Positions 3,450 through 36,019 of a stretch of 52,150 bases of DNA are shown here, one piece after another (position 1 is the stretch's first letter; each line of letters begins with the position of its first letter). The notes below the pieces were generated by a model. It had not been told where the DNA came from. It searched no databases and was given only the letters and a program-made list of their open reading frames with translations. Made by a program: the position numbers and the translations under genes. The DNA is from a virus (lineage: Duplodnaviria > Caudoviricetes): the IMG/VR virus record IMGVR_UViG_3300037200_000348, positions 1 through 52,150 of that record. The stretch is one strand, 5' to 3'.

Positions 3450-4778
3450 TCAGGGCATTGAAGTCAATGGCTTGAGCGGTGCCGACGTCGTGCGCCGTCG
3501 TTGAGTCAGTTCGGTGAGGAGTTGCTCCGTCTGTCGGAGTGCAGGGCTGAAACCGTGAGAATCGGTCAAACGAAAGTCGAGCAAGCCGGGTGGCGAGGTG
3601 CCTTTCGTAACGTGCTGAGTAAGGATACTGGTTGCCAGCACCTCCGCGGCGACAGGCGGAAAGGCATTGCCGATCTGGCGCGCGATGCTCGCACTTCCTC
3701 CCTCAAAGACAAAGCGATCGGGGAAAGACTGGAAACGTGCGCACTCACGCAGGCTGATTGCACGATCCTCGAAAGGGTGGATGAACTCCCTGCTAGACAT
3801 ACTCGTGATTGTGAGCGAGGCACAGCCAGGGTCTAATCGCTTCAGACCGGCGGGCGCTCCGCCCCGACGGTCGGTCGGCATTCCGTCGCGAACTCGACGA
3901 AACGCGCGACTTCGGTAGCTGTCAGGCCAAAGGTGCTCCGGGAGACTGCGTAAGGACTGACCAGGTTTGAGTCGACTCGCCCTTTCGAAGTCGGCTGCCG
4001 ATAAACGGGGCGCAAAGTGCTGACGTGTCCCTTGTTCCACGTTGCTGTGGCGCATAGCTTGATCGTAGTGGCTTTGCGGATCGCGGTGAGCGTAAGGCGA
4101 GAGCGCGGCTACTGTGTCTTGCACCCGCCCCAGTCCGACGATTGCCCCCGCAACTGTCGGCCCGGCGATCGCTCCGCTTTCACTCCGATGTTTCTTGCCT
4201 TCAAAGGAGTGACACGCCGCAGGGAACTCGTAAGGGATGCCAATACTGTTTGCAATAATAAGAACCCGTTTCCGCGCCTGGGGCACGCCGTAACCAGCAA
4301 AATTCGCCTTCTGCAGATTTACAGTGTAGCCGAGAGCGATGAGTTGCTGGACGAAGTCTCGGATGCTCTCGCCACCATTTGACGTGAGCAATCCTTCAAC
4401 GTTTTCGAAGACGATCCAAAGCGGACGTAGACGCTCGACCATGTGCAGGTAGGCGAAGATGAGCCGATTGCGAGGGTCGGAACCGTTCCGCGCTCCTGCG
4501 GTTGAAAAACCTTGGCACGGTGGCCCACCTATCATCGCGAAAGGCCGTGCTTGGGAGAACGTGCGTTCAAGAGTTTGAACAGTCTCGTCCGCCGCTAGGT
4601 CCGCGCATAGTGTATCGGTGCCGAGGTTGCGGCGATAGGTCGCGCAGGCATCGGGCTCAATGTCGATGCCGAGAATGGGCTTGAGGCCCACGGCGGCGAA
4701 TCCCAGCGACAGGCCGCCAGCGCCCGAGAAAAGCGCGATGGTGGAATCAGTTAGGGCCTGACGCAAGGTTTGCTCCAT
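3450..4778 (-). CDS. dcm: C5 cytosine DNA methyltransferase (orphan)
   Basis: Motif I LFSGAGG, IV GGPPCQGFS, VI ENVEGL, VIII QARKR, IX RECARFQSFPD, X QIGNAFPP. Confidence 0.93.
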   Translation of the reverse strand: MEQTLRQALTDSTIALFSGAGGLSLGFAAVGLKPILGIDIEPDACATYRRNLGTDTLCADLAADETVQTLERTFSQARPFAMIGGPPCQGFSTAGARNGSDPRNRLIFAYLHMVERLRPLWIVFENVEGLLTSNGGESIRDFVQQLIALGYTVNLQKANFAGYGVPQARKRVLIIANSIGIPYEFPAACHSFEGKKHRSESGAIAGPTVAGAIVGLGRVQDTVAALSPYAHRDPQSHYDQAMRHSNVEQGTRQHFAPRLSAADFERASRLKPGQSLRSLPEHLWPDSYRSRAFRRVRDGMPTDRRGGAPAGLKRLDPGCASLTITSMSSREFIHPFEDRAISLRECARFQSFPDRFVFEGGSASIARQIGNAFPPVAAEVLATSILTQHVTKGTSPPGLLDFRLTDSHGFSPALRQTEQLLTELTQRRRTTSAPLKPLTSMP

Positions 4779-4876: not shown

Positions 4877-7534
4877 CTATCCAACGTCGTAGCCTTTCTC
4901 GAACCAGGGCTTTTGGTCGGTCGCTTCGAGCCATAGGCTCTCGACGCCATCGAAGTACATCGCGACTGTTCCTGGGACGCCATGACGACACTTCGCGACG
5001 GCGGCCTCGGCTCGTGTTGGTGGGATGGGATTCCCGGCGTCGTCCACGACCTCCGGGTCGTTGCCGGGGTTCGGGCGCCACGGGAAGATGATCGTCGTCG
5101 CGTGGCCCTCCGTGTTGCCCCCGTCGCGGAGGTCAAACATCGTGGGGCGAGCAGCCTTCGCCCCGCGGTTGAGGTGGTAGACGACGTGCACGGGGCACGA
5201 GAGTTCATCCGCGAGCGAGAGAAGCTCCGCAAGGAGTCGATCGAGCGCGTTGTGCTTGCCACCGCTCTTCTCGGACGCCGTCGCTAAGTCGCTCACGAAG
5301 CCGATATGGTCGATCGCAATGCCGGAGAGCCCCCCGTGTTTTTGCGCGATGGCCCGGGAAGCGCGTTTAACGTCCGCCAGTGACCGCCGCGGATGCCGCG
5401 TGATAAACTCTATCGGAATCCCCTTGAGGGCCCTCTGGGCGTATTCTAGGGCCCGCCAATCCTCACTCGTGAGTCGGACGCCCTCGCGTATCTTGTTCAC
5501 CGGCACCCCGGCCCGCATCGAGAGGATGCGCTCGGCGGAATCTTCCTGGGTCATCTCCAGGCTGAAAAGCGCGAATGCCTTGGGGTTGTACGCGTGGGCC
5601 GTATACTCTGCGTAGTTGCCGAGCATGATCGAATTGTGAACAACGATGTCGTCTGCAACAAAATTGTGATGGCCTGGAACCTCTAGGTCGAAGGTCTCCA
5701 TCGGGCCAACGCTTTTAATCTCTTTGATTTCATCCCAAATTATATCTGGGCTAGCCAGCGCCGCTAACCACCGGTCTTTCAATACAGTCGCAATTGTCGC
5801 TAAGTGGTCCTGAGTAATGTCTCGATCGGGGTGAGATTTGCTGGCAAAGGCCGCGCGGCGATCAAGCTCGTCCAAACTTATTCCCCGTTGCGCGCACCGT
5901 CTTCGAATGGTGTCCCACACTTTGCGCCCCACGACGCGAAAATTTGTGTTGGAATTAGGCGAAGCGCGCCACGTCGAGAAACGCCTCGTTTTCTCGCCAA
6001 TCCATCCAATGGAAGACTGGTACGCCTGAATTGAAAGCGGGCTTGTTATCACAAGTCTCCATGCTTTTGAACCTTTGGTTGAAAAATCAGCCAAAATTCC
6101 AAAACGCAAAAAGGCGTGCTGCAAGTCACGCACAAGACGCTCGCTCGCCAAAGTAATCTCGATGATGGGGGCCATACCCTTGGAGCAATATATAGTCCCG
6201 TCGCAACTCATTAAAGCCCGCAAAAATTCTCGAAGCGCGACCGCGTCCCATTTCCAAACCTCGGCTGGTATCCACTTCTCTTTCGAGAGATGCCCCGCTA
6301 GCCCGAATCCGCGCAACCAGGACACTACTAGATTTTCCGATTGCCATCGACCGCCTCGACCGCCCCGCTCGGCAGGAAAATAGCCAAACTTCCCGTCGAA
6401 TCGCACGCTGAGCGATGGGAACTTGTCGGCGATTATTTGAGAGAAATCGGCCACTATCTCGGCGTCGGCATTAGTAAATCCGGCGTGGCTTCCACAAGCC
6501 TTACAACCGCGCGCCTCGCGGTGCGGACCGCTAATTGACGCCATGGAGCCGTCTCCGAAATAATAGCCGAGTAAGCGCGCTAACTGAGGGTCAGCCGCCT
6601 CCGAGCCGTGAACCGCCTTCGCAGACACCGCAATCCGGTCGCCACGACGCAAGGCGCGAAGCGGAGCCCACCCTTCCGTCGTCAAAAATGGATGTGCTTC
6701 GGTCGCGCAATTCTCGCGACCACTTCTTGTCCGTAGAGCATAGCACTCTTGAATCCCGCTCGGAATCCACGAGGCCACTTGTCGTGGCTCGATCTTGCCG
6801 CTATGCGACAGCGAAAGCGTTTTTTTGCGCTGCTCCTTGACGAAATCTCTAATCGTCAGGCGCTCGCCCGTTTCTGCGTCCGTGACCTTCGTATTTGCGG
6901 CCTGGCACTTCCCCATGCCCGGAGCCGCGCCCCACACGATCAATTCGCCGGGCTTGAAGCCGCCGGTAAGGCGGTCGAGGGTTTCCCATTGCGAGAGGTA
7001 TGGGCGCACGGAGGGCGAGCCGATGCGCGCCACGACGCTGTTGACGACCTCATCGAGCGAGGTGACCGTGATGGCGTTACTCGCGAGAGCGCTCGTGATT
7101 TCCCGGATGGCGTAGTCCTGGAGTTCGGCGGAGCTTTCGAAGTGCTCGTTGTAGGCCTTTTCGTAAAGCTCCCGGGCTACACGGATGATGGCCCGCGACC
7201 CCGCCTTGTCGGCAACGATACTTGCGTAATACTCAACACTCGACGCCGTAGGCACGATATCGAGTAGCGAATTGAGATAGGGGACGCCGCCCGCCTTTTC
7301 GAGCATCCCGGCGCTTCGTAGCCGCTCCGCGAGGGTGATCTTATCTATCGGCGCGTCGGCCTCGTAAAGCGCGAGGATATGGGTCCAAATAACCTCGTGA
7401 ATGTGCGCATAGAAGTCCGCCGCCTTCACGTGCGCAAGCGCGACCGGCAGCATCTCTCGCTCTAGGAGTACGGAACCGATGACTGCCATCTCTGCCTCCA
7501 GGTTCGACGGCGGAATCTTGTCGGCGGCGCTCAT
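4877..7534 (-). CDS. dnaB: replicative DNA helicase DnaB with intein
   Basis: N-terminal PPSNLEAEMAVIGS; Walker A GAAPGMGK/S split by intein; FSLEM; AKCRHG. Confidence 0.92.
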   Translation of the reverse strand: MSAADKIPPSNLEAEMAVIGSVLLEREMLPVALAHVKAADFYAHIHEVIWTHILALYEADAPIDKITLAERLRSAGMLEKAGGVPYLNSLLDIVPTASSVEYYASIVADKAGSRAIIRVARELYEKAYNEHFESSAELQDYAIREITSALASNAITVTSLDEVVNSVVARIGSPSVRPYLSQWETLDRLTGGFKPGELIVWGAAPGMGKCQAANTKVTDAETGERLTIRDFVKEQRKKTLSLSHSGKIEPRQVASWIPSGIQECYALRTRSGRENCATEAHPFLTTEGWAPLRALRRGDRIAVSAKAVHGSEAADPQLARLLGYYFGDGSMASISGPHREARGCKACGSHAGFTNADAEIVADFSQIIADKFPSLSVRFDGKFGYFPAERGGRGGRWQSENLVVSWLRGFGLAGHLSKEKWIPAEVWKWDAVALREFLRALMSCDGTIYCSKGMAPIIEITLASERLVRDLQHAFLRFGILADFSTKGSKAWRLVITSPLSIQAYQSSIGWIGEKTRRFSTWRASPNSNTNFRVVGRKVWDTIRRRCAQRGISLDELDRRAAFASKSHPDRDITQDHLATIATVLKDRWLAALASPDIIWDEIKEIKSVGPMETFDLEVPGHHNFVADDIVVHNSIMLGNYAEYTAHAYNPKAFALFSLEMTQEDSAERILSMRAGVPVNKIREGVRLTSEDWRALEYAQRALKGIPIEFITRHPRRSLADVKRASRAIAQKHGGLSGIAIDHIGFVSDLATASEKSGGKHNALDRLLAELLSLADELSCPVHVVYHLNRGAKAARPTMFDLRDGGNTEGHATTIIFPWRPNPGNDPEVVDDAGNPIPPTRAEAAVAKCRHGVPGTVAMYFDGVESLWLEATDQKPWFEKGYDVG
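5633..6907 (-). mobile_element. intein (425 aa) with LAGLIDADG homing endonuclease in the DnaB P-loop
   Basis: Begins GK/CQAANTKV, block B TEAHPF, LLGYYFGDG and FLRALMSCDG, ends FVADDIVVHN/S. Confidence 0.92.
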
Positions 7535-8586
7535 TCGGCAACCGCGGGACGCGGTGTGCCGGGAGCATGCCGCACCTCAGCAACGAAGCCGACGTCGTAG
7601 TCGAGACCGCGACGAGGGGAGCGCTCGCGCTCGGCGGGACCGGCGGTCGAACGGGGCACGTAGGTCGCGGGCTGTCCTGTGCGCCGCTGCTGGAACATCG
7701 GGGGCACCCGGTTGACCTCCGCCTTGAAGAGCGGCTTCCCGCCGTTGTCGAGCCGGGCGCGAGCGAAGAGTCGGGCCGCCTCAACCGTGCTGCACCCTCG
7801 CTCGCCGAGAATACGCAGCGCCGAGACCCAGTAGAAAATCGCTGCGTCCTGCTTCTCGGGATTTTTCGCGTTGCCGTACTCCGACAGGAACCAGCGAGCA
7901 AGGGTGTGCACCGCCGCAGTCTCGGTCGGGATAGCCTTCGGGAGCGTGTCTGGAGGCGGCGTCGGCTTCCACTCGGCGCGAGCCTTTCGCGGCGACTTCT
8001 CCGGCACCGGCTCAGGAGGCAAGAGAACTTGCTCGCCCTCTTCGGCCGAATTGACCTGCGCGGTATCTGAACGAAGTGAAGATACCGAACCGTCCGAACG
8101 CAGTGAGGACGTATCTCTATCTCTATCTCTATCTCTATCTCTATCTCTTATGCTAGAGCCCGGCTGTAGCGGGGCTACTGGCGTTGCTATAGCGTGGCTA
8201 CTGGCGTTGCTATTTCCGGGCTGGAGCCGGGCTGCAGCGCGACTCTTGGCGGCGCTATGGCCGCCCTTGGAGCCATTCGCGGCAAAGCGCGTCGATTGCT
8301 CGATCATCTCGTCGCGCACGGCTTGCATGCGGCGGTTGGCGATCGTGCCATCCGGGAGCGCTTCGAAGCGCGGCCGAATAACGTCCCAGGCGCCCGCGAC
8401 AACCTCGGTCGATTCGCCAATGATTCGCGCGCACTGCCCGGCGTCATCAGGGACGCTCCCCTCGTCAACCTGAACCATGAGAAGCTCGAAGTAGACGCAC
8501 CGCTCCACCGGCGTCATGAGCCGAACGTGTCGATCGGTGCGCCAGGCCTTATGGTCCCACTTAACCCAGGGTAGAGACTTTGCCAA
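7531..8586 (-). CDS. phage replication initiator, YdaU/DUF1376-like
   Basis: LPWVKWD...W..D...MTPVERCVYFELL...NRRM; (RD)6 linker; directly upstream of dnaB; likely TTG start at 8586 after GGAGGG. Confidence 0.7.
   Translation of the reverse strand: MAKSLPWVKWDHKAWRTDRHVRLMTPVERCVYFELLMVQVDEGSVPDDAGQCARIIGESTEVVAGAWDVIRPRFEALPDGTIANRRMQAVRDEMIEQSTRFAANGSKGGHSAAKSRAAARLQPGNSNASSHAIATPVAPLQPGSSIRDRDRDRDRDRDTSSLRSDGSVSSLRSDTAQVNSAEEGEQVLLPPEPVPEKSPRKARAEWKPTPPPDTLPKAIPTETAAVHTLARWFLSEYGNAKNPEKQDAAIFYWVSALRILGERGCSTVEAARLFARARLDNGGKPLFKAEVNRVPPMFQQRRTGQPATYVPRSTAGPAERERSPRRGLDYDVGFVAEVRHAPGTPRPAVAE
8112..8239. repeat. (TATCTC)6 microsatellite plus iteron-like direct repeats; putative origin
   Basis: TATCTC x6 at 8112-8147; GGCTACTGGCGTTGCTAT at 8173 and 8196; imperfect 20-mer at 8152 and 8220. 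Confidence 0.6.
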
Positions 8587-8619
8587 AAGAAAACCCTCCG
8601 GACTGGTAGTCCGAAGGGT
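8584..8619 (-). terminator. terminator/attenuator hairpin overlapping the initiator RBS
   Basis: ACCCTTCGGACT-acc-AGTCCGGAGGGT followed by TTTCTTTT. Confidence 0.6.
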
Positions 8620-8742
8620 CGCAAAAGTGTCGCGAGGCGATCTCTGCTTCGGGCATCCGGTCGATACGGGCCCTGGTCCGTACGACCGTTGCCCAGGAGC
8701 ATACATCCGAGAAAAGGCAGCCTGGCCTGGCCGTCGCTCTCG

Positions 8743-10012: not shown

Positions 10013-10187
10013 CTTGGTTTCCTCCAGGGCTCGCGCCCAACGTATCGTACAGTCCGTAATGCGGCGGACACACCCACCATTGAAAGCTCCAGGTTTGCAG
10101 CACGGCATCCAGCCACTGCAAGAACCTAACGCGCTTCGTGTTCGGGCAACGTCCGTCTGCGTCGGTCACATAGCAGCGCATGGTCAC
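10002..10187 (-). CDS. small hypothetical protein
   Basis: Overlap-coupled with both neighbours. Confidence 0.45.
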   Translation of the reverse strand: MTMRCYVTDADGRCPNTKRVRFLQWLDAVLQTWSFQWWVCPPHYGLYDTLGASPGGNQDAR

Positions 10188-10798
10188 GATTGCACCGCGC
10201 CGTCGAGGGCTGCGCGTATTCCGCGCGCAGCGAGTCGATGAATAACTGCGACGTCATCATTGCCCCGCGAGAATTGCGAGGCGAGTTCTTCGTGTGCCGC
10301 CGCTTCTGCGGCACAGGCCGCCAGCTTCGCCTCGGCTGCGGCGAGGGCGTCGCGAAGTTCGGCGATCGTCGTCGCCTTGAAGTCTATGTCGTCGCGCAGG
10401 TGCCCGAAGTCTGAACCGCAACACCGACAGCGTTTCCCTGCGCCGGTGCGATTCTGACGCATCTTCTCCGACTCTGCGCGCGCCGCGTTGACTTCGGCGC
10501 GGCATCGTTCGATTTCGGTTTCCAGCATCGTGCAGCGCGAACGCCAATGCTCGGGATTCGCCACGTACGATCCCTTGAGCCGTTCGTGCTTTTCGAGGAG
10601 TTCATTTCGCTCCGTCGTCACGGAGGCCAAGGCATCAAGGAGTGCCAAAACTTGCTCGGGCCCAGCCGCTTCGTGGAAGTCATCGTCAAAGTGTTCGGGC
10701 CACCCGGCGATGGAATCGTCGAGCCGAATCGCTTCAAGTAAATCCGTCGCGGTACTCTTCATGGCCGCGATCTCGGCGTCGGTGAGAGGCGCGCTCAT
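10184..10798 (-). CDS. Ead/Ea22-like coiled-coil protein
   Basis: EAAGPEQVLALLDAL resembles the Ead/Ea22 AANPATVLALLDEL motif. Confidence 0.55.
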   Translation of the reverse strand: MSAPLTDAEIAAMKSTATDLLEAIRLDDSIAGWPEHFDDDFHEAAGPEQVLALLDALASVTTERNELLEKHERLKGSYVANPEHWRSRCTMLETEIERCRAEVNAARAESEKMRQNRTGAGKRCRCCGSDFGHLRDDIDFKATTIAELRDALAAAEAKLAACAAEAAAHEELASQFSRGNDDVAVIHRLAARGIRAALDGAVQS

Positions 10799-11082
10799 CG
10801 CTCACCTCCGAGACGCCGCGCGGCTTCACGCAGTAAGCCTTCCGCCGAATGTTTCCCGTTGCAGTCGCTATGCACGTGCGGCAGTGCTGCCCGCTCCCTC
10901 GCCACCTCCAGCAACTTGTGCGCGAGAGCGGTGTCGGGATGCGCGGCAAGGCGCAGAGACTTCAGAATGATCGAACCCGCAGTCGTCGGGGAATCCGTGT
11001 ACGGGTAAGCTTGAAGTCGATCGGCAGATTCGCGCTCCTCGGCGCTGAGCACCGGGACGAGGTCGGGCGCGTCGGGATTCAT
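10795..11082 (-). CDS. hypothetical protein
   Basis: ATGA overlaps on both sides. Confidence 0.6.
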   Translation of the reverse strand: MNPDAPDLVPVLSAEERESADRLQAYPYTDSPTTAGSIILKSLRLAAHPDTALAHKLLEVARERAALPHVHSDCNGKHSAEGLLREAARRLGGER

Positions 11083-11804
11083 CCCGCGTTCACTCGTTCT
11101 TGCAGTGTGAGGATGAATTGCGCGGCCTCGCGCTCGCTAAGCTCTTCGCGCGGCATGGAGATAGCACGGCCGACCTGCGACATAGCAACTTTGAGCGTTG
11201 CGTTACGAACGCCGTTGCTGATGGTGCGGAGTTGCTCAAGCAGGCCCGTGATGAGCTTTGCCTGTAAGTCCGAGATGGTGCCGGGGGCGCCATTGAGGAC
11301 ACCGCGTTCCGTATCGGCGGGCTTCTCCGCCTCGCGCTTCTCTGCGGGAGGCTCGGCGACGCGCTCGGTCGGAACGCATAGCACCTTCTGAATTGGACCA
11401 TTGAATTTGAACGAAATGAGCCAAACGTAATCGTCTTTCTGCTCCTTCGTTTCGTCTCGCTCTTCGCCACGCGCACCGCGCGAATACGCGACGCACTCCG
11501 GCATCTTGCGCGCCTTGTTTTCCGGGAAGTGGCGGCGCTTCCAAACCTGCCCGAGGCGCTCGACGCACTGCTGCTCCGAATCGCCATCCTTGATAACGAA
11601 GTGCCGCGCGCCGATGAGGCGCCAGTCGAACTTGTCGGCCATCGCGAGCGGAAGCACCCAGCCGCCATCCGGCGGCTCTCCAGAGGCCCAGCCCTCGCCG
11701 CCCATCGTGCGCATGATGTCGTACGGCGTGTAGCCCGTGCCAACGTCGATCGAGATACACATGCCGATGCCGTTGACGAGGTGGAGCTTGCGGTCGATAC
11801 CCAC
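11079..11804 (-). CDS. ddrB: DdrB-like ssDNA-binding/annealing protein
   Basis: GWASGEPPDGGW.LP....FDWRLIGAR, RR...RKMP....YSRGA and YVWLISFK match my recollection of D. radiodurans DdrB (GWTSGEIPSGGYQFP....FDWSLIGAR, IKYSRGA, YVSLAIFR). Confidence 0.8.
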   Translation of the reverse strand: MGIDRKLHLVNGIGMCISIDVGTGYTPYDIMRTMGGEGWASGEPPDGGWVLPLAMADKFDWRLIGARHFVIKDGDSEQQCVERLGQVWKRRHFPENKARKMPECVAYSRGARGEERDETKEQKDDYVWLISFKFNGPIQKVLCVPTERVAEPPAEKREAEKPADTERGVLNGAPGTISDLQAKLITGLLEQLRTISNGVRNATLKVAMSQVGRAISMPREELSEREAAQFILTLQERVNAG

Positions 11805-12319
11805 TACTGCAGGCCTTTCTTCGGAGCTTCGTGCGGTATAACGACAAGACTGTACGTCCGTTCGCCGTACACGAGCGCCTTCTTGCGAATCGCCGCGAGG
11901 GGATGGTCGTCGCCGTAGAGGTCCGCGTATTTCTTGAGCGCCGTCGCGTTGGTCTTCAGGACGGGCTCCGTCGGCACGATGCGAAGAATCATCTCGTCCT
12001 TCTCGCGCTGCGGAATATCCGGCAGGTCGAGGATGGCGAGAAACTCGCTCTCGCGCTTATCGAGTTGCAAGGCGTTGGGCGAAAGTTCGATACGCATCGT
12101 CGCATGCGGAAGCCGCTTCGACTTCGCATCGTTCATTCGCGCGACGAGTTCCGCGCGTATCCCTTGTGCTGCGGCGGACCATGCGGCGACCTCTTCGAGC
12201 GCGCTGCGCCGGGCGTCCTCAACAAGCAATAGCTCTTCGACGAGCTTGTCGACAGAGGCATCGGCATGGGGACGCGGCGGCGGCGGTGCGGCATCCGGGA
12301 CGGCATGCAAATTCGCCAA
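11804..12319 (-). CDS. possible Gam/Gp157-like recombination-module protein
   Basis: N-terminal coiled coil followed by beta-rich region; first gene of the recombination operon, coupled to the ddrB-like gene. Confidence 0.45.
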   Translation of the reverse strand: MANLHAVPDAAPPPPRPHADASVDKLVEELLLVEDARRSALEEVAAWSAAAQGIRAELVARMNDAKSKRLPHATMRIELSPNALQLDKRESEFLAILDLPDIPQREKDEMILRIVPTEPVLKTNATALKKYADLYGDDHPLAAIRKKALVYGERTYSLVVIPHEAPKKGLQ

Positions 12320-12330: not shown

Positions 12331-12440
12331 GAAAAAAGAAGTGCGGCCCGGATACCCGGAGAGCTTGGCGACTCTTTTGGGCCCGAACCGCTGGAGGGAT
12401 TCCGCTGGTCTCGCCTGTGAGGGGTTGGCCACTCGGAACG
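12331..12440 (-). ncRNA. candidate structured leader or sRNA
   Basis: Follows a promoter, 5' GAGTGGCC can pair with 3' GGCCGCACTT, ends in TTCTTTTTT. Confidence 0.35.
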
Positions 12441-12445
12441 GGTTT

Positions 12446-12474
12446 ATGGTAGCAAAAGTCAAATAGAAAGTCAA
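12446..12474 (-). promoter_or_regulatory. promoter of the recombination/replication operon
   Basis: TTGACT-17nt-TACCAT; two AAAGTCAA boxes and an adjacent TGCTCGCT at 12483. Confidence 0.7.
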
Positions 12475-12530
12475 GGGCTAACTGCTCGCTGTCAAGGAGT
12501 CAGGAGTCGCGGGCAATAAACGGTCCATCC

Positions 12531-13776: not shown

Positions 13777-13994
13777 CTCATTTGACTTGTTCGCAGTACA
13801 CTTCCGCCATGCATGCGCGCAGTGGTTCTGGGTTCGCCTCCTCGGTCGCTGCATCGTTTGCCACGCACGCATGAAGCCGGTGTGGCGGATGCCCTACGGT
13901 GAGCGTGGACGAGCCTGCGCGTCCCTGCACCGCTGGCACAAGGACTAATGCCGTCAAGAAAATGCGAGCGCTGTTCGCGCGCGGAGGAACTGGA

Positions 13995-14624
13995 ATGGGT
14001 AAAGTAAGCGTCTCTATAATTCGTCAAAACGCCCGAAATGCCAACGTAATGCAGCCGGAATTTTTACGAAAACTACGTGCTGGAATCGAGGCCAACGACG
14101 GGCGTTACCCGCCCTTAGATGTGCGCGAGTTGGGAACTAAGCCTGAGACATACGAACTTCTCGACGGCCACCAACGCTTTTCAGTGCTCAAAGATATGGG
14201 CCACACCGAGGTCGAGGTCACAAACTGGGGAAAAGTCTCCGACGTCGATGCTGATAGGCTCCTCGTCTCCCTCAACCGGCTCCGTGGAGAGGACGACGAG
14301 TACAAGCGCTCGTCGATCATCGCGAGCCTCATGAAGAACTTCGCGTCGATGAGCGACCTCGCGAAAGTCATCCCCGAAGACATGAACGGCGTCAACAAGA
14401 TGCTGCTCCGCTACGAAGGCGGCATCGAACTCCCGCCAACCGGCAAGCAGACGGAGCCGGACCCAACTAAGCCCGTCCGACTCACCTTCGTGCTCTACTC
14501 GGACGCCGCTTCGATCGTCGAGCAATCCATTTCCCGCGTCGTCGCTGAGGCGTCGCTGGAAGGCGACAAAAACGCGCGGAACCGCGCGTTGGAACTCATC
14601 TGCGCTGACTACTTGGCGGGCTAG
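13995..14624 (+). CDS. ParB/Srx-like N-terminal domain protein
   Basis: NARNAN..., PPLDVR, YELLDGHQRF, LNRLRG; GGAGG RBS. Confidence 0.8.
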   Translation: MGKVSVSIIRQNARNANVMQPEFLRKLRAGIEANDGRYPPLDVRELGTKPETYELLDGHQRFSVLKDMGHTEVEVTNWGKVSDVDADRLLVSLNRLRGEDDEYKRSSIIASLMKNFASMSDLAKVIPEDMNGVNKMLLRYEGGIELPPTGKQTEPDPTKPVRLTFVLYSDAASIVEQSISRVVAEASLEGDKNARNRALELICADYLAG

Positions 14625-16798: not shown

Positions 16799-17269
16799 TT
16801 ACAGCGAATATAGGGCTTGTCGGTATTCACGCGGGTCCTCGGCGAACGGAATTTCGTCGTATATGTCGGCGTTTAGCGAATCGCTACTCTGGCGACTCGA
16901 CGCGCCTTCGTAGCCTGTCGCGCGCTCGCCGCCGCCATCGCGGTCTCTCTTAGATTCGAGAATCTGCATCTCGCTCGCGACTATTTCGACCGCCTTGCGC
17001 TTGTTGCCCTCGCGGTCGTCATAGTTACGAATAGTCAGTCTCCCTGAGATGAGGGTCGCCATGCCCTTTGAGAGATACTGGCTACAAATTTCGCCCAGCC
17101 GTTCCCATGCTACGACGTCGATGAACATCGTCTCGTCGCCGCTTTTGCTTTTGCGATTGACGGCTACGCAAAACTTAGCGACCAGCTTGGCTCCGCCATC
17201 CGTGTAGCGGACCTCCACGTCGCGCGTGAGGTTACCGACGACGGTGATGTGATTATATGACCCTGCCAT
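16799..17269 (-). CDS. ssb: single-stranded DNA-binding protein
   Basis: MAGSYNHITVVGNLTRDVEVRY...FIDVVAW...LSKG...GRL; acidic DEIPF near C-terminus. Confidence 0.93.
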   Translation of the reverse strand: MAGSYNHITVVGNLTRDVEVRYTDGGAKLVAKFCVAVNRKSKSGDETMFIDVVAWERLGEICSQYLSKGMATLISGRLTIRNYDDREGNKRKAVEIVASEMQILESKRDRDGGGERATGYEGASSRQSSDSLNADIYDEIPFAEDPREYRQALYSL

Positions 17270-17738
17270 GTCGCGCTCCAATCGAAATTTTAGTGATCGT
17301 TCCAGGGTGGACACTAAAAATAGGCGCGATGTCTCGACGCGTTTTGCCAGCCGCGAGCATGGCGCGTATTGAACGCACATCGTCATCGGAGAGTTTGTAT
17401 CCGCGATGCATGCGCCCCTTAGCGGCGGCGTCGCGCATGTTATCGGCCGCCGACCCAGCAAACAGGTGTGATGGACGACAGCAAGGCGGGTTATCGCACT
17501 TATGACACTGGGCGAGGCCGTCGATGTATTGCCCCGTAAGTATCGCCGCTACGATGTGCGCCTTGCGTGGGCGCCGTTTTCCATCGGGCGACAGCATCGC
17601 AATTTGCCCATAGCCCTTGTTATCACAAGAAGCGGTCCATTCCCAACATCCATCGGGCGCCCGATGAACCTTGGCCCAGAACCGCTCCTCAAACGAAAGA
17701 CCTCGAATGTATCCAGCCATTCCTGCTGCTTTCTTCAA
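17253..17738 (-). CDS. free-standing HNH homing endonuclease with C-terminal HTH
   Basis: ERFWAKV, CWEWT, GYG, CHKCDNPPCCRPSHL, DNMRD. Confidence 0.88.
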   Translation of the reverse strand: MKKAAGMAGYIRGLSFEERFWAKVHRAPDGCWEWTASCDNKGYGQIAMLSPDGKRRPRKAHIVAAILTGQYIDGLAQCHKCDNPPCCRPSHLFAGSAADNMRDAAAKGRMHRGYKLSDDDVRSIRAMLAAGKTRRDIAPIFSVHPGTITKISIGARHGRVI

Positions 17739-21152: not shown

Positions 21153-22375
21153 TAGAACGCAGCCGTTGCGAGGATGCTCACGAGCGAGGTCGAGGCGATA
21201 CGTGCCGTCTGACTGAAGAGCGGCTGGAAGTCCGCGTTACTGCCATTGACGCGCACGCTGCTCACGGTAACGTCCGTGACGCCCGGCGTTTCCATAACGA
21301 GCTTGATGATCGCTGCGATAAGAACAGCGTTGCCGATACCTAAGCCATTGATGTAGGCGAAGATTGAGGTCGCAATCGCAGTCTCGGTCGTGGCGATGGA
21401 CGCGATGTTGTTCGCATACGTCGGGTCGTACGTGAGCGAGAGCGACACTGATGTGACTGGTGTTTGCGTCGCGCCGACGACGTGCACTTCCGTGCTTGCT
21501 CCGCGATAGAGCCCCGAGTTGAAGTCGGTTTGAATTTGCGAGATGAGAGCGGTGTTTGAGCCGAGCGTGCCCGTGCCGTTGTCGACGAGAAGTTGGCCGC
21601 GACCCGGCTCGAAAGTCACGCCGTCGTCGGCGAGGTTCTCCAGGAGAAGCGCGGTGATGACGCCGGAGTAGCTAAGCGCATCTTGCTCGATCGCCGCAAC
21701 CGTGCACTGCGCCGCATTCGGAATCGCCGCGAGCGCGCGTGCGCGTAGGCCGCCGTTGGGGGCATCGTCACCTTCGAGGTCGGAGCCGCCGCCAGTCGCC
21801 GTCGGATTGAAGCCCGTGGCCCCGTATGGCCCAGAGACGACAACATTGACGGCACCGATAGGCTGGTTGCCGGAGCTTCCCGCTACCTGCGCAATGATCG
21901 GCGCGATGGTCGAGGCATTTGTCGCCCCCATCGGCACGGTAACGGCCGCCGTCGTCACGAAGAGAACGGGACTGACAGTCGGGTCCGCCTGCTGCGCCGC
22001 AACGAGCGTTCCAACAGAGAACACCGTGGCGGTCACGGCGGGAGCCGGGAGAGAGAATTGAAAACCACCTTGCGCGGTTCCCGGTTGCTTGCGGAAGACG
22101 TTGACGTCTGCGGCCTTGTTATCGAGGTCGGACCCGACGGCAGTGAGGATGTATGCAGCCTGCTGCGCACGCTGCAGCAACTGATAGGCTCCTGGCTGCT
22201 GAACACCTGGATACGATGTTGCGTCGATGCCGAGCGCTAGTGCCAGCGCCTCTAGCGTCGTCTCGGTGACGCCGCCGGGGTTAAAATTCGTCAGCAAGCC
22301 TTGAAGCTCGGTGACCGAGGCTTGGGCAGAAGCAAGGATATCCGCAACGGTCGGAAGCGCTGGCAGCGTGCTCAT
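21152..22375 (-). CDS. baseplate J/gp47-like protein
   Basis: TAVGSDLD, A..AGSSGN, TGGGSDLE.D...LRARAL. Confidence 0.9.
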   Translation of the reverse strand: MSTLPALPTVADILASAQASVTELQGLLTNFNPGGVTETTLEALALALGIDATSYPGVQQPGAYQLLQRAQQAAYILTAVGSDLDNKAADVNVFRKQPGTAQGGFQFSLPAPAVTATVFSVGTLVAAQQADPTVSPVLFVTTAAVTVPMGATNASTIAPIIAQVAGSSGNQPIGAVNVVVSGPYGATGFNPTATGGGSDLEGDDAPNGGLRARALAAIPNAAQCTVAAIEQDALSYSGVITALLLENLADDGVTFEPGRGQLLVDNGTGTLGSNTALISQIQTDFNSGLYRGASTEVHVVGATQTPVTSVSLSLTYDPTYANNIASIATTETAIATSIFAYINGLGIGNAVLIAAIIKLVMETPGVTDVTVSSVRVNGSNADFQPLFSQTARIASTSLVSILATAAF

Positions 22376-22376
22376 A

Positions 22377-23516
22377 CTATGCTACCGCCTGAACATTCGC
22401 AATGATGCCAGGACCAGCCCAGAACGGCACGACCATATTGGCCTGCAAGGTATCCTCGACGCCGATGGCGCGAACTGTGTACGAGATAAGCCATCCGGTC
22501 GCCCCTTGCTGGCTAACAGCGACGTCGAGGACGCTCGCTACGCGCGCGTCGCCATAGAGACACTCGATGACGTCGGCTTGCAGATTGAGCGCCTGAAGAG
22601 CGGGGTTCGCCTGCCCGCGCCCAATGACCTTACCCTTCATAAAGCCGTAGTCCTGATGCATCGCGAGTTCGCCGATTTCCGTCCGTAGGCGAATGCCGAG
22701 GTCTTGCGCGAGTAAGTAGAGACCATTGACGGTGAGGAGGTCGCCATTGGGCCCAATAACTCCCTCACCCGTTGCTGGGTTGAGGAAGATATCGGAGCCT
22801 AAGAGCGGGTACGGGCCAAGCGCCGGAGCGCCCGCCGGGAAGGGGCCGGTGCCGACCAGGAGCGGCAAGACCGCGGCGCCCTGGAGGTCGGAGTACCCGC
22901 TCTCGTATTCGCTCGAATCGACGGCGGTCGCCGCGTACGTCTGATTGACCCCGACGATAGGATTCGCGTCAAACAATTGATTCACGACGGAGAGCGTCGA
23001 GATAAGCTGCGTGTCGATGAGCGCGTAGGGGCCCACCGGGGTCGGCGCGCGATAGAGATTAAACGCGACGATCGGCGCGCCGCCCGTGACGGGGTCTTGC
23101 TCGACCCCGACGACAACGAGTGGGCGCAGGCCCGAGAGCGCTTGCGAGATGAAGCGGATTCGCGGCGGCGTCGGCCCCGCGATAACCGTTGGTACGATCG
23201 TAACGAGAAGCGAGAGGACGACGCCGTTATCCCCGGCAATCATGACGCGCGTCGCGCCGTACATAATCGGCGTGATCGTCAAGGTGTAGCCCGGCGAGAG
23301 CACCGCGGTATTTGACCCGCCGACGGTGCCGACTTGCGCTGAGCCGACGGTGGCTCCGGGGAGCGTGGGCGCGATAGAAACGCTCACCATGGCCGCGTTG
23401 TAGCCGAACACGGACATGCCGCCCGCATTTGACGCCTGCGTAAGCGCAACCGTTACGGGCGTCGAGAGGCCGCGAATAATGACCGGCGACGGAGACGCTA
23501 CTATCGGATTCGCCAC
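22377..23516 (-). CDS. gp25/gpW-like sheath initiator with N-terminal Ig/Fn3-like domains
   Basis: C-terminal GDLLTVNG...LAQDL..RL.T..GEL..H.DYG...DARV; FNLYR...Y..TAVD...ES Fn3 pattern. Confidence 0.75.
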   Translation of the reverse strand: MANPIVASPSPVIIRGLSTPVTVALTQASNAGGMSVFGYNAAMVSVSIAPTLPGATVGSAQVGTVGGSNTAVLSPGYTLTITPIMYGATRVMIAGDNGVVLSLLVTIVPTVIAGPTPPRIRFISQALSGLRPLVVVGVEQDPVTGGAPIVAFNLYRAPTPVGPYALIDTQLISTLSVVNQLFDANPIVGVNQTYAATAVDSSEYESGYSDLQGAAVLPLLVGTGPFPAGAPALGPYPLLGSDIFLNPATGEGVIGPNGDLLTVNGLYLLAQDLGIRLRTEIGELAMHQDYGFMKGKVIGRGQANPALQALNLQADVIECLYGDARVASVLDVAVSQQGATGWLISYTVRAIGVEDTLQANMVVPFWAGPGIIANVQAVA

Positions 23517-23532
23517 GAGCGCGTCCTTCTCG

Positions 23533-24642
23533 CTACACGCTAAACTTTACTTTGGACGACCCCGCTGGAATTGGAAGGTGAGCGGCGCCCGCGAGCGTCG
23601 CGATAGCCGCCGCCGCCGTCGGCAAGCTCGGCACCCCGGAAGCCTGCATGGCAGCGATGAGGGCGGTAATCGTGTCTTTCTTGTCCTGGAGACGCGCTGC
23701 AAAACCGCTATTTTCGAAGGTCCCTATATCCGCGTGCGCTATGGCCGCTTGGGTCGCGGGGATATTCTCCGCAAGGTCGCCGAGCGCCACGACGGGCGCC
23801 ACCGTCGAGACAGAGGGAACTCCCGTGACGGCACCAGCCGCATCATAGACGGTGTAGAGCGGGTCACCCGCGCTCACCGTGACGGTTCCGCCGCTTTCGG
23901 CCGCGCTGATGACGATGTTGCCCTCCGCGTCGACCGAGATGACCGCGCCGAGCGGATGGGTGTACGTGAAGGTGGATTCCCCATCGGCGGGCTCATCGAG
24001 AACGAAACTCTGCCCTTGCGGCATCGTGAGCGTGAGTTTTGCGCGCTTTGGGAGATTCAGCGCCGGGTCAGGGGTCGTCGTTGTCGTAACGCCGGTAACG
24101 GGGTCCGTAGTCGACGTCGCAAACGGTGCATAACCCGGTGGAATGTAATCCACAACTGACAGCGCGAGGCCGGAAAGCCAGGACACATCGAAGATGCACG
24201 GCGAGCCGTCGACGGCGGCGCTTGTTGGCGTGCTCCCGGCGTTGCGCCACCGCATGAAAAAGCCCGTCTCATCGTGGTGAATGACCATATCGTCGGGATT
24301 CACATAGATGGGTCCGGCGGCGTTTGACGGCACCGGGTCGCCGTATTTCGAGCCCGGCTTATCGAGCGAAAAGGTATGCCCGGAAGCGACCGCTAGTTGT
24401 GGAGAACCGTCAACGTAAAAGAGCTTGACGAGCATCCCTTGCCGAAAATTTCGCGTAAAACCTGGGGGCAAGAAGACCGGTACCCGGATATGGTCGGCAG
24501 ACTGATCGAGCGGGCGGACATTGACGAGCATCTGGGGCGTCGGCGGGTTCGTCTTGGCCATCGGCTCGGTCGACACGACGGTGCCGAGCTTCGTCTCCGC
24601 GTCGTTGAGCATCGTGCGGTGGTCGCCGCTCGTTCTTCCCAT
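23533..24642 (-). CDS. baseplate central spike (gpV/gp45-like)
   Basis: N-terminal OB-fold-like region followed by beta-helix-like repeats; position. Confidence 0.65.
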   Translation of the reverse strand: MGRTSGDHRTMLNDAETKLGTVVSTEPMAKTNPPTPQMLVNVRPLDQSADHIRVPVFLPPGFTRNFRQGMLVKLFYVDGSPQLAVASGHTFSLDKPGSKYGDPVPSNAAGPIYVNPDDMVIHHDETGFFMRWRNAGSTPTSAAVDGSPCIFDVSWLSGLALSVVDYIPPGYAPFATSTTDPVTGVTTTTTPDPALNLPKRAKLTLTMPQGQSFVLDEPADGESTFTYTHPLGAVISVDAEGNIVISAAESGGTVTVSAGDPLYTVYDAAGAVTGVPSVSTVAPVVALGDLAENIPATQAAIAHADIGTFENSGFAARLQDKKDTITALIAAMQASGVPSLPTAAAAIATLAGAAHLPIPAGSSKVKFSV

Positions 24643-24645
24643 GAT

Positions 24646-28876: not shown

Positions 28877-28879
28877 TGG

Positions 28880-29107
28880 CTACTTCTTTCGGCCCGTCAC
28901 CGCGTTGAGCATTTTATCGAAGAACTTCTCGTCGCCGCGGATAACCTTCGTGCCCTTCGCTTGTTTCTTGAGCGCGAACTCGCACTCCCAAAAGAGCGTG
29001 TAGTGGACATCCGTCCAGCGAGACGTCGGTATCGCCTGCCCCGCTATCTTGTGGGTCGCATGGAGGCCGGTGAGGTACCCGCCTACGTCATGCGACTGTA
29101 GTAAAAA
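28880..29107 (-). CDS. tail assembly chaperone, -1 frameshift extension
   Basis: Overlaps the end of 29083..29709 in the -1 frame at CGT TTT TAC. Confidence 0.55.
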   Translation of the reverse strand, partial: FLLQSHDVGGYLTGLHATHKIAGQAIPTSRWTDVHYTLFWECEFALKKQAKGTKVIRGDEKFFDKMLNAVTGRKK

Positions 29108-29709: not shown

Positions 29710-29750
29710 GCGCGCTTCTTTGACTTTATGGGGCGGAATCCTTGAGATTC

Positions 29751-31628: not shown

Positions 31629-31691
31629 CAGGGTCTTATATCATGGTTAACGGCTTTGCGTCAAGAACGAAGCCTTATTGCGACGGCATTC

Positions 31692-34130: not shown

Positions 34131-34150
34131 AAGCCACTCCCCTTAAAAAG

Positions 34151-35502: not shown

Positions 35503-35503
35503 A

Positions 35504-36013: not shown

Positions 36014-36019
36014 AGGGGA

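What the first reader, a model, noticed from the sequence alone, without database searches (positions are those of the whole stretch)
11079..12319. DdrB-family ssDNA-annealing protein in the phage recombinase slot
Seen: the 241-aa ORF carries GWASGEPPDGGWVLP, FDWRLIGAR, WKRR...RKMPECVAYSRGA and YVWLISFK. Knowledge, from memory: Deinococcus radiodurans DdrB has GWTSGEIPSGGYQFP, FDWSLIGAR, YRRR...RKMKLPAAIKYSRGA and YVSLAIFR in the same order. DdrB is a pentameric, non-OB-fold annealing protein usually described as Deinococcus-specific. Here it is coupled to a Gam/Gp157-like gene at the head of the recombination-replication operon, where RecT/Redbeta, Erf, Sak or Sak4 normally sit. No such recombinase is visible in this window, and a separate canonical SSB exists. 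A C-terminal helical extension (ISDLQAKLI...EELSEREAAQFI) resembles the C-terminal domains of Sak/Erf-type proteins. Inference: DdrB could be an unrecognised class of phage annealing recombinase, and Deinococcus may have domesticated it from phage.
Basis: partly seen in the sequence, partly recalled or inferred. Interest (0 to 1): 0.9.

Follow-up and report, generated by a model that had tools for sequence, protein, structure and literature searches.

The report
Phage-encoded DdrB-family DNA-annealing protein
A tailed phage carries a true but divergent relative of DdrB, the ring-shaped DNA-annealing protein thought to be special to radiation-resistant Deinococcus, in the place where phages usually keep their recombination protein.

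Summary
ORF 11079-11804(-), 241 aa, matches Pfam DdrB (E 1.6e-21, 76.9 bits, cut-off 25) and solved Deinococcus DdrB chains directly (E 6.8e-19). Its AlphaFold model matches only DdrB chains in the PDB.

It differs from canonical DdrB. A lineage-specific three-helix C-terminal domain replaces the disordered tail with an SSB-like acidic tip.

It is the second gene of four overlapping genes at the head of an early operon that runs on to DUF1376, DnaB and a C5 methylase. The 52-kb record, estimated 57% complete, has a canonical SSB. It has no RecT, Erf, Rad52, Sak4-type, RecA or YqaJ match.

The family is absent from PHROGs, from 50,697 deposited phage records and from BFVD. It recurs in at least eight other phage or prophage contexts. 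In one provirus record, two tandem prophages carry DdrB and Erf as the fourth gene of equivalent early operons.

Most likely it is the phage's single-strand annealing protein (about 0.6). An alternative-SSB role is the main rival. The "Gam/Gp157-like" label for the upstream gene is not supported. A phage origin of Deinococcus DdrB is plausible but unproven. Function is untested.

The parts
11079..11804 (-). DdrB-family gene, 241 aa, GTG start
   Evidence: Pfam DdrB E 1.6e-21; PDB DdrB E 6.8e-19; codon-position GC 0.65/0.44/0.77
11370..11804 (-). DdrB core domain, residues 1-145
   Evidence: AlphaFold2 pLDDT mostly >90 over residues 1-140; Foldseek against PDB: 15 hits at E <= 0.001, every one listed a DdrB chain, target TM 0.81-0.91; self-association model
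11280..11369 (-). Linker, residues 146-175, Pro/Glu/Ala-rich, predicted without regular structure
   Evidence: No secondary structure; pLDDT below 50 at residues 166-172
11082..11279 (-). C-terminal helical domain, residues 176-241; three predicted helices at 179-193, 197-212 and 224-240
   Evidence: block pLDDT 47-77; the only relative of this tail is the window's own 99%-identical cluster; no acidic SSB-like tip
11804..12319 (-). 171-aa gene of unknown family, first gene of the operon; its stop overlaps the DdrB start
   Evidence: no family hit; one homologue cluster at 53% identity (P0115)
10795..11082 (-). 95-aa gene, ATGA overlap with the DdrB stop
   Evidence: no family hit
10184..10798 (-). 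204-aa coiled-coil gene, ATGA overlap with the 95-aa gene
   Evidence: phrog_5585, unknown function, E 2.6e-8; only sub-threshold coiled-coil matches in Pfam
12446..12474 (-). Promoter-like site (TTGACT, 17 nt, TACCAT, TG before the second hexamer) in the divergent control region upstream of the operon
   Evidence: 1 site found against 0.7 expected from shuffles, so it is only suggestive; three TTGAC repeats visible
7531..8706 (-). DUF1376-like protein, same operon downstream
   Evidence: PF07120 E 9.3e-6, 26.4 bits, below the 30.1 cut-off
4877..7534 (-). DnaB helicase interrupted by an intein with a LAGLIDADG domain
3450..4778 (-). C-5 cytosine DNA methyltransferase
   Evidence: PF00145 E 2.4e-56
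16799..17461 (-). Canonical OB-fold SSB, the separate ssDNA-binding protein of this phage; the real start is probably the internal Met before AGSYNHITVVGNL
   Evidence: PF00436 E 2.4e-29; TIGR00621 118.8 bits; translation

Best explanation
The ORF encodes a phage member of the DdrB family. Its N-terminal 145 residues adopt the DdrB fold, self-associate into a DdrB-like ring and keep most ssDNA-contact residues. A flexible linker joins this core to a small, lineage-specific helical domain, where canonical Deinococcus DdrB has a disordered tail ending in an SSB-like acidic tip. The gene is made early, from a translationally coupled four-gene cassette at the head of the replication operon. It most likely binds ssDNA exposed at ends, gaps or replication intermediates and anneals complementary strands without ATP or RecA. 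That would make it the phage's single-strand annealing protein, working like Redbeta, Erf or Sak, while the phage's own OB-fold SSB does the general coating. The helical C-terminal domain would be the partner-docking module; the partner is unknown, and candidates are the 171-aa neighbour, SSB or the replisome. Shown here: homology, predicted fold, modelled self-association, gene order and the absence of other recombinase families in the window. Inferred: ssDNA binding, annealing, the in vivo role and the role of the C-terminal domain.
For: Homology: Pfam DdrB at 76.9 bits against a cut-off of 25; solved DdrB chains at E 6.8e-19. Fold: AlphaFold2 mean pLDDT 82, core mostly above 90; Foldseek against PDB gave 15 hits at E <= 0.001, every one listed a DdrB chain (4noe, 4exw, 4hqb), target TM 0.81-0.91, and the next hit had E 0.7. 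Self-association: four copies of residues 1-150 scored 0.70 against 0.00 for the best of 3 controls. That mark was reached by 20 of 30 proteins solved as pairs of one chain and by 1 of 23 solved as single chains. The runs agree in at least 80% of contacts and the partner's pLDDT is at least 80. DNA-contact residues of D. radiodurans DdrB (R64, W66, R83, K94, K108, R132, K135, plus R85 and K102; passages of PMC3834827) map through the alignment to R67, F69, K89, A98, R112, K133, P137, R91 and A106. Six of the nine are kept in kind, and R91 is R in 172 of 172 family cores. DdrB of Deinococcus is an established annealing protein (passages of PMC6300522; PMC13110880). Context: stop/start overlaps link 171 aa, DdrB, 95 aa and 204 aa, followed by DUF1376, DnaB and a C5 methylase. 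A separate SSB is present. RecT, ERF, Rad52, AAA_24, RecA and YqaJ are absent from the window. Slot equivalence: provirus record G003 holds two integrases that are 54% identical. One prophage has DdrB and the other has ERF as the fourth gene of the early operon. The ERF operon continues to DnaB and a C5 methylase, as the window's operon does. DdrB genes also lie beside DnaB, primase-polymerase, SF2 helicase, ThyX or DNA methylase genes in L002, L003, L020/L022, L028 and L039-L041.
Against: No activity was measured. The record is only 57% complete, so a canonical recombinase could lie in the missing part. No exonuclease partner of the YqaJ/lambda-Exo or PDDEXK_1 type was found, and such a partner usually accompanies phage annealing proteins. 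Three of the nine DNA-contact positions are not kept (A98, A106, P137). In the 97%-complete record G002, and in G001 and G003, no OB-fold SSB was found (0 of 3). In L003, L020 and L022 the DdrB gene lies just upstream of primase-polymerase and helicase genes. That fits an SSB role at least as well as a recombinase role. The self-association pass may come from the model's memory of the solved DdrB pentamer; it used four copies and my own alignment, unlike the calibration. The slot argument rests on position alone: apart from the integrases, the two G003 prophages share no detectable homologues.
Confidence: 0.6

Rival explanations
1. It is an alternative replicative ssDNA-binding protein: a non-OB SSB that coats lagging-strand or rolling-circle ssDNA. 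Recombination would not be its main role.
For: DdrB was first described as an alternative SSB (passages of PMC2879517; abstract of PMC3739723). 0 of 3 other DdrB-bearing viral records have a PF00436 SSB, including the 97%-complete G002. In L003, L020 and L022 the gene sits directly upstream of primase-polymerase and helicase genes. One family member (P0011) and the canonical Deinococcus copies carry SSB-like acidic tips.
Against: This window already encodes a canonical SSB with a YDEIPF motif, so a second general SSB would be redundant. The window protein has no acidic tip; it has a helical domain instead. In Deinococcus, DdrB coexists with SSB and acts in single-strand annealing (PMC6300522 passages).
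Confidence: 0.25
2. It protects ssDNA or DNA ends from host nucleases, or acts as a decoy against host defences that sense phage ssDNA-binding or recombination proteins. This would be an early counter-defence function, not recombination.
For: It is a very early gene next to small genes of unknown function. C-terminal tails in the family are hypervariable: 14 small clusters plus 52 singletons among tails of 40 aa or more, a pattern typical of conflict-driven evolution. Second copies in three Deinococcus loci (L072, L092, L110) lie with ThiF genes; Prok-E2_D, PIN and RecD2-like helicase genes each occur in one of them. Host defences that target phage recombinases are documented (abstract of PMC11846896).
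Against: There is no direct evidence. The conserved core and DNA-contact residues argue for the ancestral ssDNA activity. Position next to replication genes recurs in unrelated phages.
Confidence: 0.1
3. It is a passenger gene recently picked up from a Deinococcus chromosome and has no role in the phage.
For: The family is concentrated in Deinococcales among cellular genomes: 54 of 60 confirmed new loci of the motif scan carry Deinococcus-type titles.
Against: Identity to Deinococcus copies is only 38-46%. The tree places it with metagenomic proteins P0002, P0004, P0006 and P0007, far from all Deinococcus clades. The C-terminal architecture differs. It is translationally coupled inside an early operon. 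The 171-aa/DdrB pair recurs at 95-99% identity on an independent metagenome contig (L019).
Confidence: 0.03

Closest known systems
Deinococcus DdrB (PDB 4EXW, 4HQB, 4NOE; Pfam PF12747)
   Same: Homologous core of about 140 residues with the same predicted fold. Modelled self-association through the same kind of strand-to-strand contacts. Most ssDNA-contact residues are kept. It coexists with a canonical SSB.
   Different: Phage-encoded, in an early replication operon. Only 29-31% identity in the structural alignments. A three-helix C-terminal domain stands in place of the Pro/Ala/Gln-rich disordered tail ending in EE(I/T)PF seen in canonical Deinococcus copies. Three DNA-contact lysines are not kept. 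I did not test for radiation/desiccation-response control.
Phage single-strand annealing proteins of the Rad52-like group (Redbeta, RecT, Erf, Sak)
   Same: Position at the head of an early operon before replication genes. In G003 an Erf gene holds the equivalent position in the neighbouring prophage. Two-part build: an oligomeric N-terminal DNA-binding domain and a small C-terminal helical domain. That Redbeta's C-terminal domain binds partners is my recollection, not a result of any call.
   Different: No sequence or profile relation and a different fold (only DdrB hits). No adjacent exonuclease gene was recognised.
OB-fold SSB and T7 Gp2.5-type phage ssDNA-binding proteins
   Same: ssDNA-binding proteins encoded next to replication genes. 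Some DdrB-family members carry SSB-like acidic tips. DdrB-bearing phages G001-G003 lack an OB-fold SSB.
   Different: Not an OB fold, according to the authors of the structure (PMC2879517 passages), although PMC13110880 describes the core as SSB-like. The window protein has no acidic tip, and the window has its own SSB.
Phage P1 'DdrB' (darA operon)
   Same: The name only.
   Different: P1 DdrB is a ParB-like, head-packaged polyvalent protein and is unrelated (PMC5512222 passages). It accounts for most literature hits that pair 'DdrB' with 'phage'.

Membership tests
DdrB family (Pfam PF12747) | Match to the family profile above the curated cut-off | tested here: met
   76.9 bits against 25, E 1.6e-21, covering profile positions 6-130 of 132; six-frame search 78.5 bits
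DdrB family (Pfam PF12747) | Direct sequence similarity to experimentally characterised DdrB | tested here: met
   4exw_A E 6.8e-19; 4hqb_A E 7e-16
DdrB family (Pfam PF12747) | The DdrB fold | tested here: met
   Model pLDDT 82. 15 PDB hits at E <= 0.001, every one listed a DdrB chain, target TM 0.81-0.91. This is a predicted structure, not a solved one.
DdrB family (Pfam PF12747) | Homo-pentameric ring | tested here: inconclusive
   Self-association is supported: score 0.70 against 0.00 for the best of 3 controls. The mark was reached by 20 of 30 solved one-chain pairs and 1 of 23 single chains. Runs agree in at least 80% of contacts and the partner's pLDDT is at least 80. Only four copies could be modelled, so the stoichiometry is untested, and the pass may reflect memory of the solved pentamer.
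DdrB family (Pfam PF12747) | ssDNA-contact residues (R64, W66, R83, R85, K94, K102, K108, R132, K135 of D. radiodurans) | tested here: met
   Six of nine are kept in kind (R67, F69, K89, R91, R112, K133); A98, A106 and P137 are not. The alignment near K135 differs between phmmer and hmmalign.
DdrB family (Pfam PF12747) | ssDNA binding and ATP-independent annealing activity | not testable with these tools
   Needs purified protein
Canonical Deinococcus DdrB orthologue group | Disordered C-terminal tail ending in a negative, SSB-like patch | tested here: not met
   The window tail is helical and ends ...LQERVNAG. Canonical copies (L046, L122, L115, L077, L113, L135) end in EEIPF, DTPF, EPPF or ETPF (PMC2879517 passages).
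Canonical Deinococcus DdrB orthologue group | Chromosomal gene under radiation/desiccation-response control | not tested
   I did not scan for the regulatory motif. The gene lies in a viral record.
Phage Rad52-like annealing proteins (RecT/Redbeta, Erf, Sak) | Profile match to RecT, ERF or Rad52_Rad22 | tested here: not met
   The only Pfam hit of the ORF is DdrB. There is no RecT, ERF or Rad52 match anywhere in the record.
Phage Rad52-like annealing proteins (RecT/Redbeta, Erf, Sak) | Adjacent 5'-3' exonuclease partner gene | tested here: not met
   No YqaJ or PDDEXK_1 match. The only exonuclease found is DnaQ-like, at 203-952, about 10 kb away.
Gam / Sipho_Gp157 (for the 171-aa neighbour) | Profile match to PF05565, PF07352 or a PHROG of that function | tested here: not met
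   None at E <= 1. No Pfam, PHROGs or NCBIfam hit.
Gam / Sipho_Gp157 (for the 171-aa neighbour) | Fold likeness | tested here: inconclusive
   The AlphaFold2 model has pLDDT 44, so I ran no fold search. The language-model neighbours of homologue P0115 are viral hypothetical clusters; one of them has a 12% share of Mu Gam at score 0.90.

The most novel reading that the evidence does not exclude
DdrB-fold proteins are a further, so far unlisted superfamily of phage and mobile-element single-strand annealing proteins, interchangeable with Erf/RecT-type proteins in early operons. The 'Deinococcus-specific' radiation-resistance protein DdrB was recruited from this mobile pool more than once. During recruitment it would have exchanged a phage-type helical partner domain for an SSB-like acidic tail. 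DdrA (Rad52-like) and the phage-type IrrE/DdrO regulator pair would be parallel cases.
Probability: 0.35. Interest if true: 0.8.

Novelty: new variant of a known kind. Interest (0 to 1): 0.64.

Why it matters
A 2026 review passage lists four families of annealing proteins and gives DdrB as bacterial (PMC13110880). As I recall them, phage recombinase surveys list Rad52-like, Rad51-like and Gp2.5-like groups only. A phage DdrB that anneals DNA would add a structurally unrelated class to the phage recombination toolkit. It would also be a new candidate for recombineering in high-GC hosts. The origin of a hallmark Deinococcus repair protein would become testable: the family's diversity lies largely outside the shallow Deinococcus clades, and several members sit in phages, prophages, a Mu-like element and islands with ubiquitin-like-system genes. 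The family is rare. Only 104 clusters at 50% identity were found among 1.84 billion representatives, and 3 loci besides the window among 2.9 million viral contigs in a motif-seeded scan. Its ecological weight is therefore small.

Tried and rejected
1. Word-seeded homologue search for the DdrB ORF returned only its own cluster. The full HMMER scan was needed.
I repeated it with the 12 closest sequences (A2).
3. 'Relatives' cannot be drawn for a virus record.
4. Host assignment failed. The portal protein has no prophage relative in genome contigs. Its nearest deposited phages are Thermus phages at 21.7% identity. The tail sheath has no match. An exact 60-mer of L004 was not found in genome contigs. 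The host stays unknown.
5. 171-aa neighbour: BLASTP against the 260-aa gene upstream of DdrB in L002 found no similarity (E 4.6). The AlphaFold2 model was too poor for a fold search.
6. Ten long family members show no Pfam domain beyond DdrB. The window's C-terminal tail found no relatives by jackhmmer or BLASTP among 104 representatives plus loci.
7. tblastn of 20 window proteins against 40 loci found shared neighbours only in L002 (DnaB, DUF1376) and in the near-identical L019. There is thus no conserved 'DdrB cassette' across phages.
8. The TerL_ATPase search found nothing in G000-G003, so it did not help to delimit prophages.
9. The Gp2.5-type search is uninformative because its control failed.
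10. I considered strict mutual exclusivity with Erf and rejected it as stated, because G003 holds both. The two genes lie in separate tandem prophages, each with its own integrase.
Supplementary files of papers were closed and not consulted. They may hold DdrB alignments or lists of paralogues, for example Table S4 of PMC6300522.
Full report
OBSERVATION. The window is a linear IMG/VR virus record of 52,150 bp, estimated 57% complete. Codon-position GC of 0.65/0.44/0.77 fits a real gene. It matches Pfam DdrB (PF12747) at E 1.6e-21 and 76.9 bits, against a cut-off of 25, over profile positions 6-130 of 132. It aligns directly with the solved DdrB proteins 4exw_A (E 6.8e-19) and 4hqb_A (E 7e-16); these were the only two PDB sequences found at E <= 1.

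FOLD, ASSEMBLY AND DNA-BINDING SURFACE. An AlphaFold2 model built on a 63-row alignment has mean pLDDT 82, mostly above 90 over residues 1-140. Foldseek against the PDB gave 15 hits at E <= 0.001. Every one listed is a DdrB chain (4noe, 4exw, 4hqb), with target TM 0.81-0.91, and the next hit has E 0.7.

Four copies of residues 1-150 were modelled together. The score was 0.70, and the best of 3 controls scored 0.00. That mark was reached by 20 of 30 proteins solved as pairs of one chain and by 1 of 23 solved as single chains. The runs agree in at least 80% of contacts, and the partner's pLDDT is at least 80. Three caveats apply: a like complex (the DdrB pentamer) has been solved, so the pass may come from memory; only four copies could be sent; and my own alignment was used.

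PMC3834827 (passages) names the residues of D. radiodurans DdrB tested for ssDNA binding: R64, W66, R83, K94, K108, R132, K135, R85 and K102. In the alignment the chain index is the native number plus 4. This offset is consistent with the paper's H80, A81, L95, L97 and G106. The residues then map to R67, F69, K89, A98, R112, K133, P137, R91 and A106, so six of nine are kept in kind. Across 172 distinct family cores, R91 is R in 172, R67 is R in 127, and the F69 column is W, F or Y in 108.

WHAT DIFFERS FROM CANONICAL DdrB. After a linker predicted without regular structure, the window protein has three predicted helices at residues 179-193, 197-212 and 224-240 (block pLDDT 47-77). Canonical Deinococcus copies instead have a Pro/Ala/Gln-rich tail that ends in EEIPF, DDDTPF or DEETPF, like the tip of bacterial SSB. 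The authors of the structure had already noted a negative C-terminal patch (PMC2879517 passages).

Tails are the variable part of the family. Of 104 representatives, 51 have 60 or more residues after the core, 20 have 20-59, and 33 have fewer. Tails of 40 aa or more fall into 14 small clusters plus 52 singletons, and the window's tail matches only its own 99%-identical cluster. Ten long forms show no Pfam domain other than DdrB.

CONTEXT IN THE WINDOW. The window is a myovirus-like contig with portal, minor head, major head, sheath and tape-measure genes. It also has a minus-strand early operon.

- The 171-aa ORF's TAG overlaps the DdrB GTG start.
- The DdrB stop and the 95-aa start form ATGA.
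- The 95-aa stop and the 204-aa start form ATGA.

Downstream follow a 284-aa protein, a DUF1376-like protein, DnaB with an intein, a C5 methylase, a DUF3307 protein and, further on, a DnaQ-like exonuclease. A promoter-like site lies upstream at 12446-12474. The scan found 1 site against 0.7 expected from shuffles, so this is only suggestive.

A canonical SSB is encoded at 16799-17461. Six-frame profile searches found no RecT, ERF, Rad52_Rad22, AAA_24, RecA, YqaJ or PDDEXK_1. The Gp2.5-type search is uninformative because its control rang nowhere.

THE FAMILY ELSEWHERE. A full HMMER scan of 1.84 billion cluster representatives found 104 proteins at E <= 0.001 and 63 at E <= 1e-10, with lengths of 100-411 aa.

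The family appears to be missing from the phage catalogues available here:
- The window protein and 10 of 10 further family proteins hit no PHROG.
- tblastn of two family members against 50,697 deposited phage records found nothing.
- The model has 0 hits at E <= 0.001 in BFVD.
- NCBIfam has no matching model.

Motif-seeded scans gave these results:
- Viral contigs: 3 confirmed loci out of 24 pattern matches.
- Metagenome contigs: 24 confirmed out of 155.
- Genomes: 13 confirmed out of 25; 12 are titled Deinococcus or Deinococcaceae and 1 'uncultured bacterium'.
- A second genome scan with the FDWxLIGAR motif returned 98 stretches. 60 of the 97 new loci were confirmed by hmmsearch. Of these, 54 carry Deinococcus-type titles and 6 do not: two Gemmatimonadota, one Longimicrobiales and one Bacteroidales MAG contig, and two 'uncultured bacterium' records. 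The other 37 were chance matches.

All these scans are seeded by short motifs and therefore undercount the family.

Phage-type contexts:
- L002: DdrB of 337 aa, then a DUF1376-like gene and DnaB; its record holds an integrase.
- L003, L020 and L022: DdrB followed by a large gene of about 650 aa (a Prim-Pol match in L003 only) and an SF2 helicase.
- L004: integrase, then small genes, then DdrB.
- L028: DdrB followed by ThyX.
- L039-L041: helicase, DUF4326, DdrB and an N6/N4 methylase.
- L088: DdrB beside a Mu-type transposase and TniB.

In contrast, the Deinococcus chromosomal loci share conserved gene order with large cellular-looking genes.

THE RECOMBINASE SLOT. In the three other viral records (G001 57%, G002 97% and G003 91% complete), RecT, Rad52, AAA_24 and YqaJ are absent in all three. 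ERF occurs once, in G003 at 107.8-108.2 kb, 77 kb from DdrB.

G003 holds two integrases, at 35.2-35.7 kb and 113.4-114.0 kb. They are 54% identical. Each prophage shows the same layout: the integrase, then minus-strand genes, then a plus-strand early operon whose fourth gene is DdrB (239 aa) in one and ERF (229 aa) in the other. The ERF operon continues to DnaB and a C5 methylase. That is the same functional order as the window's operon. This is positional evidence only, because the two prophages share no other homologues.

Against a pure recombinase reading, none of the three records has an OB-fold SSB. In those phages DdrB may be the only ssDNA-binding protein.

PHYLOGENY. I built trees of the 142-column core: FastTree with 172 rows and an IQ-TREE quick search with 97 rows. 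Before the first tree I dropped 17 of 205 rows with less than 80% of the core filled and merged identical rows. For the second tree I kept 34 chosen loci, the window and representatives P0002-P0070, minus four that duplicate loci. Deep forks are unresolved.

The window groups loosely with P0002, P0004, P0006 and P0007 (SH-aLRT 88), far from any Deinococcus clade. Deinococcales sequences form at least four shallow groups:
- the canonical group with acidic tails, with provirus L004 nearby;
- a short form of 149-153 aa, nested with the phage-context loci L003, L020 and L022 (98*);
- second copies in islands with ThiF and Prok-E2_D genes;
- a low-GC Deinococcales group.

Holding the canonical and short groups together costs 93 log-likelihood units, p-AU 0.009. 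I named that grouping after seeing the tree, which weakens the test. There is no root, so the direction of transfer is open.

THE 171-aa NEIGHBOUR. It has no Pfam, PHROGs or NCBIfam hit and no Sipho_Gp157 or Mu Gam match at E <= 1. Only its own cluster and one cluster at 53% identity (P0115) were found. P0115's longest contig is 5,209 bp, the same length as the contig of P0107, a member of the P0002 DdrB cluster. The gene pair is therefore probably conserved, but that is an inference from matching lengths. The AlphaFold2 model has pLDDT 44 and shows a long N-terminal helix followed by a mixed region; I ran no fold search on it. The language-model neighbours of P0115 are viral hypothetical clusters, one with a 12% share of Mu Gam at score 0.90. 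'Gam/Gp157-like' remains a guess.

MECHANISM AND RIVALS. Most likely (0.6), the protein is a ring-forming, ATP-independent ssDNA annealing protein serving phage recombination or recombination-dependent replication. Its helical C-terminal domain would dock a phage- or host-specific partner. The main rival (0.25) is a non-OB replicative SSB. Minor rivals are end protection or counter-defence (0.1) and a passive passenger gene (0.03).

LITERATURE.
- 'DdrB, phage, annealing': 29 papers, 25 listed.
- 'DdrB, crystal structure, ssDNA, pentamer': 13 papers.
- 'PF12747': 1 paper.
- 'DdrB-like': 2 papers.
- 'DdrB, Deinococcus, prophage': 18 papers, 15 listed.

I read passages of PMC11846896, PMC10711431, PMC10140301, PMC3834827, PMC6300522, PMC2879517, PMC5512222, PMC13110880, PMC3314630 and PMC8072749. 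For the rest I saw only listings and the starts of abstracts. None of what I read describes a phage-encoded homologue of Deinococcus DdrB. The 'DdrB' of phage P1 is an unrelated ParB-like protein. PMC2879517 calls DdrB 'unique to Deinococcus spp.'. PMC13110880 (2026) lists the DdrB family as bacterial. PMC10140301 found DdrB-profile hits in desert metagenomes without discussing phages. PMC8072749 notes that relatives of the IrrE/DdrO regulator pair are common in phages and conjugative transposons, which fits a mobile origin of parts of this regulon.

From memory only, Pfam's own text says the family occurs 'in bacteria and viruses'. If that is right, viral members were known to the database, though not discussed in print.

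LIMITS. Function is untested. The record is incomplete and the host is unknown. All family scans except one search were motif-seeded. The contexts of the 94 protein-only representatives could not be seen. Supplementary files and the scan's earlier notes were closed.

Noticed in passing
L004 and L141 (record G003: 22114-38509 and 98000-114118): One provirus record holds two tandem prophages whose integrases are 54% identical. DdrB in one and Erf in the other are the fourth gene of the early operon. The Erf operon runs on to DnaB and a C5 methylase.
   Followed up: yes
L072 1516-6853, L092 1201-5193, L110 131-7257: Second DdrB copies in Deinococcus sp. VB343 chromosome 2, D. marmoris and D. saxicola each lie near a ThiF (E1-like) gene. 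L072 also has Prok-E2_D, L092 a PIN-domain gene and L110 a RecD2-like helicase. This looks like a mobile or conflict island.
   Followed up: partly
L088 68-6305: On a Longimicrobiales MAG contig, a DdrB gene lies a few genes upstream of a Mu-type transposase (Mu-transpos_C) and a TniB ATPase. The element is Mu-like or Tn7-like.
   Followed up: partly
L046, L122, L115, L077, L113, L135 (C-termini of DdrB ORFs): Canonical Deinococcus DdrB tails end in EEIPF, DTPF, EPPF or ETPF, very like the acidic tip of bacterial SSB. The short Deinococcus form (149-153 aa; for example L005 and L014) has no tail at all.
   Followed up: partly
L130 1147-2574: On a 2.8-kb Bacteroidales MAG contig, the DdrB domain sits at residues 321-451 of a 476-aa stop-to-stop frame that ends DTDEPY. 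It is either a long N-terminal fusion or an over-extended frame.
   Followed up: no
window 4877-7534 (-): The phage DnaB helicase is interrupted by an intein with a LAGLIDADG homing-endonuclease domain.
   Followed up: no
window 16799-17461 (-): The phage SSB carries a YDEIPF motif 14 residues before its C-terminus rather than at the very end. The listed ORF is probably over-extended at its 5' end.
   Followed up: no
window 40727-41815 (-) and 36892-39696 (+): A GIY-YIG-type homing endonuclease gene lies next to the major head gene. A 934-aa DNA methyltransferase-like gene lies on the opposite strand inside the structural module.
   Followed up: no
window 12440-12500 (-): Three TTGAC repeats in the divergent control region between the early operon and the plus-strand genes could be operators.
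   Followed up: no
window 13899-14624 (+): A ParB-like protein (TIGR00180, E 2.4e-5, below the cut-off) is encoded in the divergent plus-strand block.
   Followed up: no
L117 4912-5205 and 7322-7867: A low-GC (0.44) Deinococcales MAG locus has two DdrB matches within 3 kb.
   Followed up: no
P0011 (C-terminus): A 291-aa family member from a metagenome ends ...DDIDPFADD. This is an SSB-like tip on a long-tailed, non-Deinococcus-clade DdrB.
   Followed up: no
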